From: a virus
Lineage: Duplodnaviria; Heunggongvirae; Uroviricota; Caudoviricetes
Length of the DNA: 4,463 bases
Reading direction: 5' to 3' (one strand)
Virus record (IMG/VR): IMGVR_UViG_2695420579_000010
A program made the translations under genes and the position numbers. Within the stretch, counting starts at the first letter, position 1; the number at the start of each line of letters is the position of its first letter. Of this stretch, positions 852 through 4,030 are shown piece after piece. The notes under the pieces are model-generated. The model made no database searches and was not told the DNA's origin. It was given only the letters and a program-made list of their open reading frames with translations.

Positions 852-902
852 GCGGGTGCTTGAGGCTATCTGCTTCAGGCATGAACACCAAAAGGCAGAT
901 AG
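852..902 (+). promoter_or_regulatory. hok mRNA 5' leader elements (tac-like 5' end plus stem-loop)
   Basis: GCGGGTGCTTGAGG (852-865) is the reverse complement of 1236-1251 apart from one bulged base. An 8-bp inverted repeat CTATCTGC (867-874) / GCAGATAG (895-902) follows. The layout resembles plasmid R1 hok mRNA as I recall it. Confidence 0.55.
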
Positions 903-904
903 AG

Positions 905-975
905 AAAAGCCCCAGTTAACATTACGCGTCCGGCAAGACGCTTAACATTAATCTGAGGCCAATTTCATGCTTTGC
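905..975 (-). ncRNA. sok: Candidate Sok-like antisense RNA (inferred, boundaries approximate)
   Basis: Inference only. Minus-strand -35 TTGCCT (reverse complement of 1005-1010), 17-bp spacer, weak -10 TAACCT (reverse complement of 982-987) would start an antisense transcript near 975 that covers the mok start codon at 967-969. A 5-bp hairpin lies at 926-941 on the minus strand, but there is no clean U-tract terminator. Confidence 0.25.
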
Positions 976-1179
976 ACATGTAGGTTAGCCTCTTACATGC
1001 CGAAAGGCAAGGAGAAGCAGGCTATGAAGCAGCAAAAGGCGATGTTAATCGCCCTGATCGTCATCTGTTTAACCGTCATAGTGACGGCACTGGTAACGAG
1101 GAAAGACCTCTGTGAGGTACGAATCCGAACCGGCCAGACGGAGGTCGCTGTCTTCGTAGACTACGAATCCAGGAAGTAA
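967..1179 (+). CDS. mok: Mok-like reading frame (in-frame N-terminal extension of Hok)
   Basis: 70-codon ORF beginning MLCTCR, 19 codons upstream of and in frame with hok. This is the same arrangement, with a similar N-terminus, as E. coli mokC/hokC as I recall them. Confidence 0.5.
   Translation: MLCTCRLASYMPKGKEKQAMKQQKAMLIALIVICLTVIVTALVTRKDLCEVRIRTGQTEVAVFVDYESRK
1024..1179 (+). CDS. hok: Hok/Gef family type I toxin (HokD/HokC-like)
   Basis: 51 aa, MKQQKAMLIALIVICLTVIVTALVTRKDLCEVRIRTGQTEVAVFVDYESRK: one hydrophobic transmembrane helix followed by the conserved LCE..R.G..EVA tail of Hok proteins. AAGGAG at 1009-1014 lies 9 nt before the ATG. Stop TAA 1177-1179. Confidence 0.9.
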   Translation: MKQQKAMLIALIVICLTVIVTALVTRKDLCEVRIRTGQTEVAVFVDYESRK

Positions 1180-1353: not shown

Positions 1354-1516
1354 ACTTAAGTAGCGCGCAGGGAGAAGAGGGATGGACCCCGAACAGGGGA
1401 GAGCTATTTATCTGGAAGGATTCTGAAGATGAAAATCGAAGAATTGCGTGAAATTTTTAGTGAAAATGGCCTCTATGCTGTGCGCGTTGAGAATGGAGCG
1501 ATTGTCAGCCATTGCC
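1354..1516. repeat. Direct repeat copy A (leader, upstream small ORF, RBS and first 29 codons of X)
   Basis: Aligns without indels to 2159-2321 at an offset of 805 nt, with about 9 mismatches by eye. Begins with the palindrome ACTTAAGT (1354-1361). Confidence 0.9.
1382..1426 (+). CDS. Possible 14-codon leader ORF upstream of X1
   Basis: ATG 1382 preceded by GGAG (1371-1374) at 7-nt spacing; encodes MDPEQGRAIYLEGF; TGA 1424-1426 lies 2 nt before the X1 ATG. Speculative. Confidence 0.25.
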   Translation: MDPEQGRAIYLEGF

Positions 1517-2061: not shown

Positions 2062-2137
2062 NNNNNNNNNNNNNNNNNNNNNNNNNNNNNNNNNNNNNNN
2101 NNNNNNNNNNNNNNNNNNNNNNNNNNNNNNNNNNNNN
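2062..2137. other. Run of 76 N (assembly gap or masked bases)
   Basis: Seen directly. True length and content are unknown, and it truncates the DUF1367-like gene. Confidence 0.95.
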
Positions 2138-2158
2138 TGCCGGAATAGAATCAAAAAT

Positions 2159-2321
2159 ACTTAAGTAGCGCGCAGGGAGAAGAGGGATGGACCCCGAACA
2201 GGGGAGTGCTATTTATCTGGAAGGATTCTGTTGATGAAAATCGAAGAATTACGTGAAATTTTTAGTGAAGATGGCCTCTATACTGTGCGCGTTGAGAATG
2301 GCGCTATTGTCAGCCACTGCC
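2159..2321. repeat. Direct repeat copy B
   Basis: Roughly 95 percent identical to 1354-1516. Starts 22 nt after the N gap and carries the same ACTTAAGT palindrome (2159-2166). Confidence 0.9.
2187..2234 (+). CDS. Possible 15-codon leader ORF upstream of X2
   Basis: ATG 2187; encodes MDPEQGSAIYLEGFC; stop TGA 2232-2234 overlaps the X2 ATG at 2234 (TGATG). Speculative. Confidence 0.25.
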   Translation: MDPEQGSAIYLEGFC

Positions 2322-2515
2322 TTCCAGACTACACAATTCTGATAATTCAGCCGTCTTTGCCAGCAGGCACGGGCGGCGCTCTCACGCATTTAAATCTGAT
2401 TGGTACCAGCATCCCCCATGCACTGAAGAACAGGCCGAATGGCTCATTCAGTGTTACCGCAGGCGCGGATGCGAGGTTAAAAAAGCCCTTAGCCTCGACT
2501 ACCGTCACTGGATAA
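2234..2515 (+). CDS. Hypothetical small protein X2 (shared N-terminus; C-terminal frame uncertain)
   Basis: ATG 2234 with GGAAGGA 8 nt upstream; 93 aa to TAA 2513-2515. After codon 29 the product is low-complexity (P/S/T/G/A-rich), and the -1 frame is also open through to 2589, so the true C-terminus may differ. Confidence 0.4.
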   Translation: MKIEELREIFSEDGLYTVRVENGAIVSHCLPDYTILIIQPSLPAGTGGALTHLNLIGTSIPHALKNRPNGSFSVTAGADARLKKPLASTTVTG

Positions 2516-2590
2516 TCTCCGTCAGGCTCCCTTACTCCGAACGGCCAACGCGTCCGTCCCGCACATTCCAGCAACGGATCTGGAGGTAAT

Positions 2591-3649
2591 GTGCGGGTAT
2601 TACTTCGACCTGTTCTGGTACCGGAACTCGGTCTGGTTATCGTTAAGCCAGGCCGTGAATCAATGTCAGCATTCCATAACGGCAGAATACTGGTGGAGCC
2701 GGAACCAAAAAGCATGCGTAATCTGCCGTCCGGGGTCGTTCCTGCCGCTCGCCAGCCGCTGGTGGAAGACAAAACATTGCTGCCGTTTTTCAGTAACGCA
2801 CGGGTGATTCGTGCTGCTGGTGGTGCTGGTGCATTGTCTGACTGGCTGTTGCGCCATATTAAATCCTGCCAGTGGCCACACGGCGATTATCATCACAGCG
2901 AAACCGTCATTCACCGTTATGGTACCGGCGCAATGGTGTTGTGCTGGCACTGCGACAACCAGCTGCGTGACCAGACATCCGAATCACTCGAGCAACTTGC
3001 TCATCAAAACCTGTCAGCATGGATGATTGACGTCATCGGTCACGCAATAAGCGGTACGCAGGAGCGTGAATTATCTCTGGCTGAATTATCCTGGTGGGCG
3101 GTCCGCAATCAGGTGGCGGACGCGCTACCGGAAGCGGTATTACGTCGTTCGCTGGGGTTGCGTGCGGAAAAAATTCGCTCTGTGTACAGTGAAAGCGACA
3201 TCATACCGGGAGAGCAGACAGCCACCAGCATACTGAAGCAGCGCACAAAAAATATTGCGTTACTGCCTCACGTCCACCAGCAACAGAACCCACCACAGGA
3301 AAAGACGGTGGTCAGCATTGCCGTTGATCCGGAGTCACCGGCTCAGTATCTCCAGCGCCAGAAATCACAACGGGAAGAGATGCCTGTATACACGCGCTGG
3401 GTAAAAACGCAGAAATGCATGACGTGTGGCAATCAGGCAGATGATCCGCATCACATCATTGGTCATGGACTGGGAGGGATGGGAACAAAGGCTGATGATT
3501 TGTTTGTTATTCCGTTATGCCGTAAATGCCGTAACGAACTACATGCCGGAGTAAAAGATTTTGAAGAGAAACACGGCAGTCAGCTGTTGTTGCTGATTCG
3601 TTTTTTAATGCACGCGAGAAATTCGGGTGTTCTGAAGTGGAAAGCATAA
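2591..3649 (+). CDS. DUF968 / YdfU-like prophage protein with Cys/His-rich modules
   Basis: 352-aa ORF from GTG 2591 with GGAGG (2582-2586) 4 nt upstream; alternative ATG at 2663. The translation resembles Qin prophage YdfU as I recall it. Contains CWHC and a C-terminal CMTCGN..HHIIGHG..CRKCRNELH motif. Stop TAA 3647-3649 abuts the rusA ATG. Confidence 0.8.
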   Translation: MRVLLRPVLVPELGLVIVKPGRESMSAFHNGRILVEPEPKSMRNLPSGVVPAARQPLVEDKTLLPFFSNARVIRAAGGAGALSDWLLRHIKSCQWPHGDYHHSETVIHRYGTGAMVLCWHCDNQLRDQTSESLEQLAHQNLSAWMIDVIGHAISGTQERELSLAELSWWAVRNQVADALPEAVLRRSLGLRAEKIRSVYSESDIIPGEQTATSILKQRTKNIALLPHVHQQQNPPQEKTVVSIAVDPESPAQYLQRQKSQREEMPVYTRWVKTQKCMTCGNQADDPHHIIGHGLGGMGTKADDLFVIPLCRKCRNELHAGVKDFEEKHGSQLLLLIRFLMHARNSGVLKWKA

Positions 3650-4030
3650 ATGACCGAGCGCATAGAATTTGTTTTACCTTACCCGCCGACGGTGAACACT
3701 TACTGGCGTCGTCGTGGCAGCACATATTTTGTATCAAAAGCCGGGGAGCGTTATCGCCGGGCAGTGGCGCTTATTGTTCGCCAGCAGCGGCTGAAATTAA
3801 GCCTGTCCGGAAGGTTGGCAATAAAAATTATTGCAGAACCACCGGATAAGCGCCGCCGTGACCTGGACAATATTCTGAAAGCGCCGCTGGATGCGCTGAC
3901 GCATGCGGGGTTGCTAATGGACGATGAGCAGTTTGATGAAATCAATATCGTTCGTGGTCAGCCAGTATCTGGTGGACGTCTGGGGGTGAAGATTTACCCC
4001 ATAATGCATGAAGAGCAGGTCAAAAAATGA
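3650..4030 (+). CDS. rusA: Crossover junction endodeoxyribonuclease RusA (Holliday junction resolvase)
   Basis: 126 aa with RusA hallmarks: N-terminal LPYPPTVNTYW, the acidic catalytic region RRRDLDNILKA..DAL..AGLLMDDEQ. Its stop overlaps the Q start (ATGA at 4027-4030). Confidence 0.9.
   Translation: MTERIEFVLPYPPTVNTYWRRRGSTYFVSKAGERYRRAVALIVRQQRLKLSLSGRLAIKIIAEPPDKRRRDLDNILKAPLDALTHAGLLMDDEQFDEINIVRGQPVSGGRLGVKIYPIMHEEQVKK

What the first reader, a model, noticed from the sequence alone, without database searches (positions are those of the whole stretch)
2296..2593. Two reading frames stay open upstream of DUF968, with an A_AAA_AAG heptamer in the X2 frame
The X2 frame runs to TAA 2513-2515. 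The -1 frame is open for 98 codons (2296-2589) with no ATG, GTG or TTG anywhere in it, and ends at a TAA that abuts the DUF968 start. In the X2 frame, codons 82-84 read TTA AAA AAG, giving the dnaX-type -1 slippery heptamer at 2479-2485 with GAGG just upstream; only a weak bulged hairpin (2492-2499 with 2521-2527) lies 6 nt downstream. A -1 shift there would replace the last 10 residues with a 36-residue tail. Separately, the X2 frame is the same frame as DUF968, interrupted only by the single TAA at 2513-2515. Candidate explanations are programmed frameshifting, a frameshift mutation or sequencing indel in X2, an ancestral X-DUF968 fusion split by a nonsense codon, or coincidence in GC-rich DNA.
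Basis: seen in the sequence. Interest (0 to 1): 0.45.

Follow-up and report, generated by a model that had tools for sequence, protein, structure and literature searches.

The report
Deletion scar fusing two prophage genes
The two overlapping open frames are the scar of a 250-base deletion that joined the start of one small prophage gene, out of frame, to the body of the next, so this is ordinary gene decay in a Shigella sonnei-type cryptic prophage and not a programmed ribosomal frameshift.

Summary
Intact homologues carry two separate genes between hokD and DUF968. One is a Rem-like gene (86 aa). The other, here called Y, is a 92-aa gene of family phrog_1212 whose stop lies 1 nt before the DUF968 GTG. 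The window lacks exactly 250 bp between 2321 and 2322. That removes rem codons 30-86, the spacer with Y's ribosome-binding site, and Y's first 11 nt. The start-less "-1 frame" is therefore the last 88 codons of Y. The tail of X2 is Y read in its +1 frame.

Across 33 distinct intact Y sequences, the Y frame is under purifying selection (pN/pS 0.22) and the X2 frame is not (1.81). The A_AAA_AAG heptamer is simply Lys-Lys-Ala (AAA AAA Gcc) in Y. It is present in only 13 of 33 sequences and is usually broken by a synonymous AAA-to-AAG change. No significant structure lies downstream (z = +0.38), and GAGG lies only 2 nt upstream of the heptamer.

The TAA at 2513 sits inside invariant Trp-Ile-Ile codons of Y, so no X-DUF968 fusion ever existed. 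The same junction occurs in S. sonnei Ss046 and many other assemblies, so the deletion is real and not a sequencing error. Interest is low.

The parts
2159..2230 (+). Conserved leader upstream of the rem-like gene. It is one arm of the 163-nt direct repeat shared with 1354-1516.
   Evidence: the repeat finder gives 94% identity. The leader is also conserved in intact homologues and in K-12 Qin.
2231..2321 (+). 5' remnant of a Rem-family gene: the TTG 2231 / ATG 2234 start plus the first 29 codons and the first base of codon 30.
   Evidence: This stretch matches the intact 86-aa genes of L001, L085 and L090 up to base 2321. Those genes match phrog_340, and public records tag the product PF27490 Rem.
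2321..2322 (.). Deletion junction. Exactly 250 bp present in intact alleles are missing here. The join is blunt, with no microhomology.
   Evidence: Shown by alignments A1 and A3. L090 has 100% identical flanks and 250 extra bases. The same 26-mer junction is found in L008, L009, L086-L089 and L091-L095.
2322..2589 (+). 3' remnant of gene Y (phrog_1212 family): the third base of codon 4, codons 5-92, and stop TAA 2587-2589. There is no start codon and no ribosome-binding site.
   Evidence: Translation. The intact 92-aa ORF is seen in L001, K-12 and 81 other loci. phrog_1212 match at E = 7e-34. pN/pS is 0.22 in this frame.
2322..2515 (+). Out-of-frame read-through: X2 codons 30-93 are Y read in its +1 frame, ending at TAA 2513-2515.
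   Evidence: Translation. pN/pS is 1.81 in this frame across homologues. In intact loci this frame is only an internal 52-aa ORF.
2479..2485 (+). The A_AAA_AAG heptamer. In the Y frame it is Lys57-Lys58 plus the first base of Ala59 (AAA AAA Gcc).
   Evidence: Present in 13 of 33 unique Y sequences. The other 20 read AAG AAA, AGG AAA or CAG AAA. K-12 has AAG AAA. It occurs at chance frequency in the window.
2513..2515 (+). TAA that ends X2 and separates it from the DUF968 frame. It is embedded in Y codons Trp-Ile-Ile (TGG ATA ATC).
   Evidence: Invariant in 33 of 33 unique homologues.
2582..2593 (+). The Y-stop / DUF968-start junction GGAGG TAA t GTG, a translational-coupling arrangement.
   Evidence: GGAGGTAA(C/T)GTG is present in all 81 intact loci.
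2591..3649 (+). Intact DUF968 / YdfU-family gene immediately downstream.
   Evidence: Pfam PF06147 at E = 2.6e-62. An identical protein is on record in 3132 blocks of public assemblies.
2062..2137 (.). Scaffold gap (76 N) that separates this locus from an unrelated prophage piece to the left.
   Evidence: Sequence. The contexts of the left and right halves in complete genomes differ.

Best explanation
The region is a pseudogenised pair of small lambdoid-prophage genes.

In the intact arrangement the gene order is hokD, rem-like X (86 aa), a 66-69-nt spacer, Y (92 aa, phrog_1212), then DUF968, with Y's stop 1 nt before the DUF968 GTG. A single 250-bp deletion with blunt ends removed three things. 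These are rem codons 30-86, the spacer carrying Y's ribosome-binding site, and the first 11 nt of Y including its ATG. Because 250 is not a multiple of three, the rem start now reads into Y one base out of register.

Shown: ribosomes starting at 2231/2234 would make 29 Rem residues followed by 64 residues of meaningless +1-frame sequence, and would stop at TAA 2513. The true Y frame (2322-2589) stays open only because it was a working gene until recently, and it has no start codon because the start was deleted. The heptamer is the accidental +1-frame reading of Y's Lys-Lys-Ala codons.

Inferred: neither Rem nor Y is made. DUF968 still initiates from its own GGAGG-GTG but has lost coupling to Y translation. 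Any -1 slippage at A_AAA_AAG is unselected noise that would yield a non-functional chimera.

The allele is the one carried by Shigella sonnei Ss046 and many related assemblies.
For: Deletion:
- Two intact E. coli loci (L001, L085) and one locus with identical flanks (L090) each have exactly 250 extra bases between window 2321 and 2322. They are annotated with two separate CDS of 86-87 and 92 aa.

Y is a real gene:
- phrog_1212 match at E = 7e-34.
- 155 clusters of 90-92-aa proteins and 56 representatives at 50% identity, including 66-aa core-only relatives.
- 81 loci carry an intact 92-codon ORF.
- Variable sites by codon position are 27/26/62. pN/pS is 0.22 in the Y frame, 1.81 in the X2 frame and 1.07 in the third frame.

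Heptamer and stimulators:
- The heptamer is present in only 13 of 33 unique sequences and occurs at chance frequency in the window.
- The downstream fold has z = +0.38.

TAA 2513:
- Invariant in all 33 unique sequences.

The deletion is real:
- The junction 26-mer is found in L008 and L009, which are 100% identical to window 2138-3786.
- It is found in 9 of 10 places carrying the identical DUF968, including CP000038.1, which is S. sonnei Ss046 (PMC5447701).
- The X2 93-aa product is on record in 965 blocks.
Against: In this deleted allele the heptamer really is in the translated (X2) frame, and a -1 shift there really would enter the Y frame. Some incidental slippage therefore cannot be excluded by sequence analysis.

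Some public annotations call a 90-aa ORF in the Y frame starting at CTG 2317, so residual translation of the Y remnant is formally possible.

No expression data were available. The deletion mechanism is unknown, since the junction shows no microhomology.
Confidence: 0.93

Rival explanations
1. Programmed -1 ribosomal frameshifting of the dnaX type at A_AAA_AAG 2479-2485. It would produce both a 93-aa product and a longer transframe product carrying the Y C-terminus.
For: The heptamer is in register in the X2 frame and the -1 frame is open to 2589. From general knowledge, A_AAA_AAG is an efficient slippery motif in E. coli even without stimulators.
Against: The two-frame arrangement exists only because of a recent 250-bp deletion. 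In the intact locus the X2 frame over Y is untranslated and evolves as non-coding sequence (pN/pS 1.81). The heptamer is absent from 20 of 33 distinct homologues. There is no significant downstream structure. GAGG ends 2 nt before the heptamer, whereas from general knowledge of dnaX the stimulatory Shine-Dalgarno sequence lies about 10-14 nt upstream. The transframe product would carry only Y residues 59-92. It would lack strand 1, the helix and the start of strand 2 of the predicted Y fold.
Confidence: 0.02
2. Sequencing or assembly artefact: the missing bases are an error in this draft assembly, which also contains an N gap nearby.
For: The window is a scaffold with 76 N at 2062-2137, and a 163-nt repeat flanks the gap. 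No complete E. coli genome carries the junction, and neither does any GTDB species representative.
Against: The identical junction is found in two IMG/VR contigs from different genome projects. It is also in 9 of 10 independent assemblies carrying the same DUF968 allele, among them finished chromosomes such as S. sonnei Ss046 CP000038.1. The resulting 93-aa product is on record in 965 blocks of public assemblies. The junction shares no k-mer between its two sides that could mislead an assembler.
Confidence: 0.01
3. An ancestral X-DUF968 fusion protein was split by a nonsense mutation at 2513-2515.
For: X2 and DUF968 share a frame with a single TAA between them.
Against: The TAA is invariant in 33 of 33 unique homologues because it lies inside Y's TGG ATA ATC codons, and 24 of 33 have a second stop in that frame at the position equivalent to 2444. 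That frame shows no coding constraint. All 81 intact loci have Y's own stop and a GGAGG-spaced GTG for DUF968.
Confidence: 0.01
4. The Y remnant is still expressed as an N-terminally trimmed protein. Translation would start at a non-canonical codon (CTG 2317, as some annotations assume) or by reinitiation, so Y is not a pseudogene.
For: The whole 66-aa conserved core of the family (Y residues 27-92) is retained. Several public records call a 90-aa CDS from CTG 2317.
Against: The frame has no ATG, GTG or TTG. The sequence before CTG 2317 lacks a Shine-Dalgarno-like motif. CTG lies inside the translated X2 frame. Gene callers disagree on this stretch, which points to a forced call and not to evidence of expression.
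Confidence: 0.05

Closest known systems
Rem and the downstream 92-aa ORF of the E. coli K-12 Qin cryptic prophage (hokD-rem-[ORF]-ydfU)
   Same: The gene order and sequences are the same. X2's first 29 residues align with Rem. The -1 frame aligns with the 92-aa ORF between rem and ydfU. The same GGAGGTAAnGTG junction leads into YdfU/DUF968.
   Different: K-12 and most E. coli loci keep both genes intact and separate. The window has lost 250 bp spanning the end of rem, the spacer and the start of Y. In K-12 the heptamer reads AAG AAA.
dnaX-type programmed -1 frameshift site (A_AAA_AAG with an upstream Shine-Dalgarno sequence and a downstream stem-loop)
   Same: The heptamer sequence is identical and in register with the translated frame, and the -1 frame is open.
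   Different: There is no correctly spaced upstream Shine-Dalgarno sequence and no significant downstream structure. The heptamer is not conserved, and the zero frame shows no constraint among homologues. The arrangement was created by a recent deletion.
Deletion and IS-driven pseudogenes typical of Shigella genome decay
   Same: This is a lineage-restricted inactivating deletion in a cryptic prophage of a Shigella sonnei-type genome, flanked by IS elements in complete genomes. An intact counterpart with identical flanks exists (L090).
   Different: Nothing material differs. The only curiosity is that the fusion happens to place a slippery heptamer in frame.

Membership tests
Programmed -1 ribosomal frameshift site (dnaX / IS-element type) | X_XXY_YYZ slippery heptamer in register with the translated zero frame | tested here: met
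   TTA AAA AAG lies in the X2 frame at 2477-2485. This holds only in the deletion allele. In intact loci that frame is not translated.
Programmed -1 ribosomal frameshift site (dnaX / IS-element type) | Stimulatory downstream stem-loop or pseudoknot about 5-9 nt after the heptamer | tested here: not met
   The 75 nt downstream fold at -12.6 kcal/mol, z = +0.38, and 122 of 200 shuffles fold at least as well.
Programmed -1 ribosomal frameshift site (dnaX / IS-element type) | Upstream Shine-Dalgarno-like element at stimulatory spacing (about 10-14 nt; general knowledge of dnaX) | tested here: not met
   GAGG is at 2473-2476 and ends 2 nt before the heptamer. No other SD-like element lies at 10-14 nt.
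Programmed -1 ribosomal frameshift site (dnaX / IS-element type) | The heptamer and both reading frames are conserved among homologues | tested here: not met
   The heptamer is present in 13 of 33 unique sequences. pN/pS in the zero (X2) frame is 1.81. The fused arrangement is absent from 81 intact loci.
phrog_1212 small phage protein family (gene Y) | Significant match to the family profile over its whole length | tested here: met
   The intact homologue scores E = 6.9e-34 over profile positions 1-66 of 66. The window's own 88-residue remnant finds 56 family representatives.
phrog_1212 small phage protein family (gene Y) | A complete ORF with a start codon and ribosome-binding site, i.e. a functional gene | tested here: not met
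   The frame 2296-2589 contains no ATG, GTG or TTG. The ATG and the upstream spacer lie inside the deleted 250 bp.
Rem family (PF27490 / phrog_340; gene X) | Match to the family over most of its length | tested here: not met
   Only residues 1-29 of X2 are Rem-like. The phrog_340 best stretch covers residues 32-85 of the intact protein, which is the deleted part. Public records nevertheless tag the 93-aa product PF27490. The local Pfam copy gave no hit for the intact protein.
Deletion-generated pseudogene | An intact homologous allele is colinear on both sides, the extra segment contains essential gene parts, and the lesion is reproduced in independent assemblies | tested here: met
   L090 flanks are 100% and 99.8% identical with 250 extra bases. 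The junction is found in 11 other fetched loci, including S. sonnei Ss046.

The most novel reading that the evidence does not exclude
In the Shigella sonnei deletion allele, the accidental in-frame A_AAA_AAG might let a few percent of ribosomes slip into the Y frame. That would make a Rem(1-29)-linker-Y(59-92) chimera with some retained or new activity, and would be a snapshot of a recoding site born by deletion.
Probability: 0.02. Interest if true: 0.4.

Novelty: already known. Interest (0 to 1): 0.07.

Why it matters
It matters mainly as a caution. A long start-less open frame next to a slippery heptamer looks like recoding, but comparison with one intact homologue shows it to be a deletion scar.

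There are two practical consequences. First, this S. sonnei locus should be annotated as two pseudogene fragments (rem 5' and Y 3'). Public records currently give it as a 93-aa "Rem" protein or as a 90-aa CTG-initiated ORF, and they disagree with one another. Second, the Y family is a conserved but largely unannotated partner of DUF968/YdfU. It is even unannotated in E. coli K-12 Qin, and may deserve a gene name.

Tried and rejected
Junction searches:
- An exact junction 26-mer search in GTDB species representatives gave 0 hits. This is uninformative if the species representative is an E. coli genome without this allele, which I did not check.
- The first look-up of the X2 product used the TTG-start 94-aa form and found nothing. 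The ATG-start 93-aa form is on record in 965 blocks.
- A 120-nt junction query in complete E. coli genomes returned only two-piece matches spanning 370 bp. A 44-nt junction query returned nothing.

Function of X and Y:
- Pfam, NCBIfam and PADLOC gave no family for X or Y.
- An AlphaFold2 model of Y has a beta-alpha-beta-beta core with pLDDT above 90. It gave no significant PDB match: best E = 0.2 and TM below 0.4. Y's function remains unknown.
- A literature search for rem/ydfU/hokD and for the label "toxin to Rem" found nothing relevant.

Other checks:
- The promoter/terminator scan of 2138-2700 found nothing notable.
- CP064376.1, the record with the intact allele, could not be identified to organism with these tools.
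- Rejected as explanations: programmed frameshift, assembly artefact, and a nonsense-split fusion (see the rival explanations).

Full report
**Observation.** The window reads as E. coli/Shigella lambdoid-prophage DNA. Its features are:
- queH (110-796)
- sok RNA (854-1029; Rfam RF01794, 117 bits)
- hokD (1024-1179)
- a rem-like gene X1 (1429-1716)
- the 5' part of a DUF1367 gene (from 1755)
- a run of 76 N (2062-2137)
- X2 (2231/2234-2515)
- DUF968 (2591-3649; PF06147, E = 2.6e-62)
- rusA (3650-4030; PF05866)
- the start of an antiterminator Q gene

- X2 ends at TAA 2513-2515.
- The frame from 2296 is open for 98 codons to TAA 2587-2589 and has no ATG, GTG or TTG.
- AAAAAAG is at 2479-2485, in register with X2, with GAGG at 2473-2476.
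- X2 and DUF968 share a frame broken only by that TAA.

As recoding signals these features are not beyond chance. AAAAAAG occurs once against 1.10 expected. The 75 nt downstream fold no better than shuffles (z = +0.38).

**What it is.** A megablast of 2138-2700 against 5,426 complete E. coli genomes gave full-length matches. In every listed record the match came in two pieces spanning 812 bp instead of 562.

In the annotated homologue L001 (NZ_CP027388.1) the interval between hokD and DUF968 holds two separate CDS. One is 86 aa. The other is 92 aa and ends 1 nt before the DUF968 GTG. Pairwise alignment shows that the window lacks exactly 250 bp between 2321 and 2322. The same is seen against E. 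coli UMNF18 (L085). There the 60 nt on either side of the junction are 100% identical to the window.

A third locus, L090 (CP064376.1), encodes a DUF968 protein identical to the window's. Its flanks are 100% and 99.8% identical to the window, and it carries the 250 extra bases.

The deleted segment comprises rem codons 30-86, the 66-69-nt spacer, and the first 11 nt of the second gene, including its ATG. The join is blunt, with no microhomology.

This explains each element of the finding:
- The first 29 codons of X2 are Rem.
- X2 codons 30-93 are the second gene (Y) read in its +1 frame.

**Y is a real, conserved gene and the X2 frame is not coding.**
- The intact Y matches PHROG family phrog_1212 over the full 66-position profile (E = 6.9e-34). 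X matches phrog_340.
- A search of 5.8 billion proteins found 155 clusters, nearly all 90-92 aa. Those that carry a source name are from Escherichia or Shigella.
- An exhaustive HMMER search with the window's own 88-residue remnant found 56 representatives at 50% identity. They include many 66-aa proteins at 35-46% identity that correspond to Y residues 27-92.
- An IMG/VR scan kept the best 80 loci of at least 591 that encode a relative. Together with the reference loci, 81 carry an intact 92-codon ORF, and these give 33 distinct nucleotide sequences.

Across those 33 sequences, variable sites fall 27/26/62 on codon positions 1/2/3 of the Y frame. Pooled pN/pS is 0.22 in the Y frame, 1.81 in the X2 frame and 1.07 in the third frame.

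K-12 Qin carries the same pair. Rem is annotated there. The 92-aa Y ORF (NC_000913.3 1644306-1644584, complement) is intact but not annotated.

**The heptamer and the TAA.** In the Y frame the heptamer is Lys57-Lys58-Ala59 (AAA AAA Gcc). Only 13 of 33 distinct homologues (29 of 81 loci) have AAAAAAG. The rest read AAG AAA (synonymous), AGG AAA or CAG AAA, and K-12 reads AAG AAA.

GAGG ends 2 nt before the heptamer. From general knowledge of dnaX, stimulation of -1 shifting needs a spacing of about 10-14 nt.

The TAA at 2513-2515 lies within Y's TGG ATA ATC (Trp-Ile-Ile) and is invariant in 33 of 33 homologues. In 24 of 33 there is a second stop in that frame, at the position equivalent to 2444. 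All 81 intact loci have GGAGGTAA(C/T)GTG at the Y/DUF968 boundary. There was therefore never an X-DUF968 fusion. The shared frame is a coincidence of a stop-poor alternative frame.

**Real deletion, not an artefact.**
- The junction 26-mer is absent from GTDB species representatives.
- A 44-nt junction probe finds nothing in complete E. coli genomes.
- Two IMG/VR contigs from different genome projects (L008, L009) carry the junction and are 100% identical to window 2138-3786.
- Looking up the window's exact DUF968 protein returned 10 places. Nine carry the junction, among them CP000038.1, which is Shigella sonnei Ss046 (PMC5447701).
- The 93-aa X2 product is on record in 965 blocks of public assemblies.

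The allele is thus a lineage marker of S. sonnei-type genomes, and its absence from the E. coli-only collection is as expected. An intact allele with identical flanks exists (L090), so the deletion is evolutionarily recent. That is why the orphaned Y frame has not yet acquired stops.

**Mechanism and consequences.**

Shown:
- The deletion removes Y's start and ribosome-binding site and shifts rem into Y's +1 frame.
- The only ATG-, GTG- or TTG-initiated product of this stretch is a 93/94-aa chimera of 29 Rem residues plus 64 unconstrained residues.

Inferred:
- Both Rem and Y functions are lost.
- DUF968 keeps its own strong GGAGG-4 nt-GTG start. However, ribosomes now terminate 76 nt upstream at 2513 instead of 1 nt upstream, so termination-reinitiation coupling with Y is lost.
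- A bare A_AAA_AAG may allow a low level of incidental -1 slippage. The product would carry only Y residues 59-92, and so would lack strand 1, the helix and the start of strand 2 of the predicted beta-alpha-beta-beta fold (AlphaFold2, mean pLDDT 79, core above 90). It is very unlikely to be functional or selected.

**Function of the lost genes.** This remains unknown. Pfam, NCBIfam and PADLOC give nothing for X or Y. Foldseek against the PDB gives no match better than E = 0.2. A few phage records label Y "toxin to Rem", but no literature supports this. X is optional: it is present upstream of Y in about 25 of 76 loci with enough flank. The Y-DUF968 pair, by contrast, is constant.

**Comparison with known systems.** The site shares only the heptamer with dnaX-type programmed frameshift sites. 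It fails the tests for a downstream structure, for Shine-Dalgarno spacing and for conservation. It fits ordinary deletion-type pseudogenisation of a cryptic prophage, which is a hallmark of Shigella genome decay. IS elements flank the locus in complete genomes.

**Verdict.** The frameshifting, fusion and artefact interpretations are rejected. Novelty: already known in kind. Interest: low, about 0.07. The most novel reading that remains is a nascent, accidental recoding site producing a chimera, with a probability of about 2%.

Noticed in passing
window 2062-2137 (N gap) and both flanks: The scaffold gap joins two different prophage pieces. In complete genomes the left block (queH-hokD-rem X1-DUF1367) continues into YbcO/DUF1133, or is cut by an IS element about 43 nt beyond window 2061 (L100-L104). 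In S. sonnei Ss046-type genomes the right block is preceded directly by its own hokD copy (L008, L086-L095). The adjacency shown in the window is therefore probably a scaffolding artefact, or it hides much sequence.
   Followed up: partly
L003 1307-1585, minus strand (NC_000913.3 1644306-1644584): E. coli K-12 MG1655 has an intact 92-aa ORF of the Y / phrog_1212 family in the 346-bp 'intergenic' gap between rem and ydfU. The ORF ends 1 nt before the ydfU start. It is not annotated in the RefSeq record.
   Followed up: partly
window 2582-2593; 81 related loci: Y's stop and the DUF968 start are always arranged as GGAGG-TAA-N-GTG. This suggests obligatory translational coupling of a conserved Y-DUF968 gene pair of unknown function. 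The rem-like gene upstream is optional, present in about one third of loci.
   Followed up: partly
window 2234-2589; L086-L099: Public annotations of this identical S. sonnei DNA disagree. Some call a 93-aa 'Rem' (PF27490) product with a gene range of 356 nt running from the X2 ATG to the Y stop. Others call a 90-aa ORF starting at CTG (window 2317). Neither marks it as a pseudogene.
   Followed up: partly
window 1354-1428 and 2159-2230: A leader of about 75 nt (CTTAAGTAGCGCGCAGGGAGAAGAGGGATGGACCCCGAACAGGGGAG...GGAAGGATTCTG) is conserved upstream of every rem-like gene, including K-12 rem. It contains a CCCC-GAACA-GGGG hairpin. It might be the 3' end of the hok mRNA or a regulatory leader.
   Followed up: no
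window 854-1029: A strong match to the sok antisense RNA family (RF01794, 117 bits against a gathering score of 59) lies upstream of and overlapping the hokD reading frame, as expected for a hok/sok type I toxin-antitoxin locus.
   Followed up: no
L004 2501-2779 (ON470612.1) and similar phage records: Some deposited phage genomes label the Y homologue 'toxin to Rem'. No paper in the searchable library supports a toxin-antitoxin relationship between Y and Rem.
   Followed up: partly
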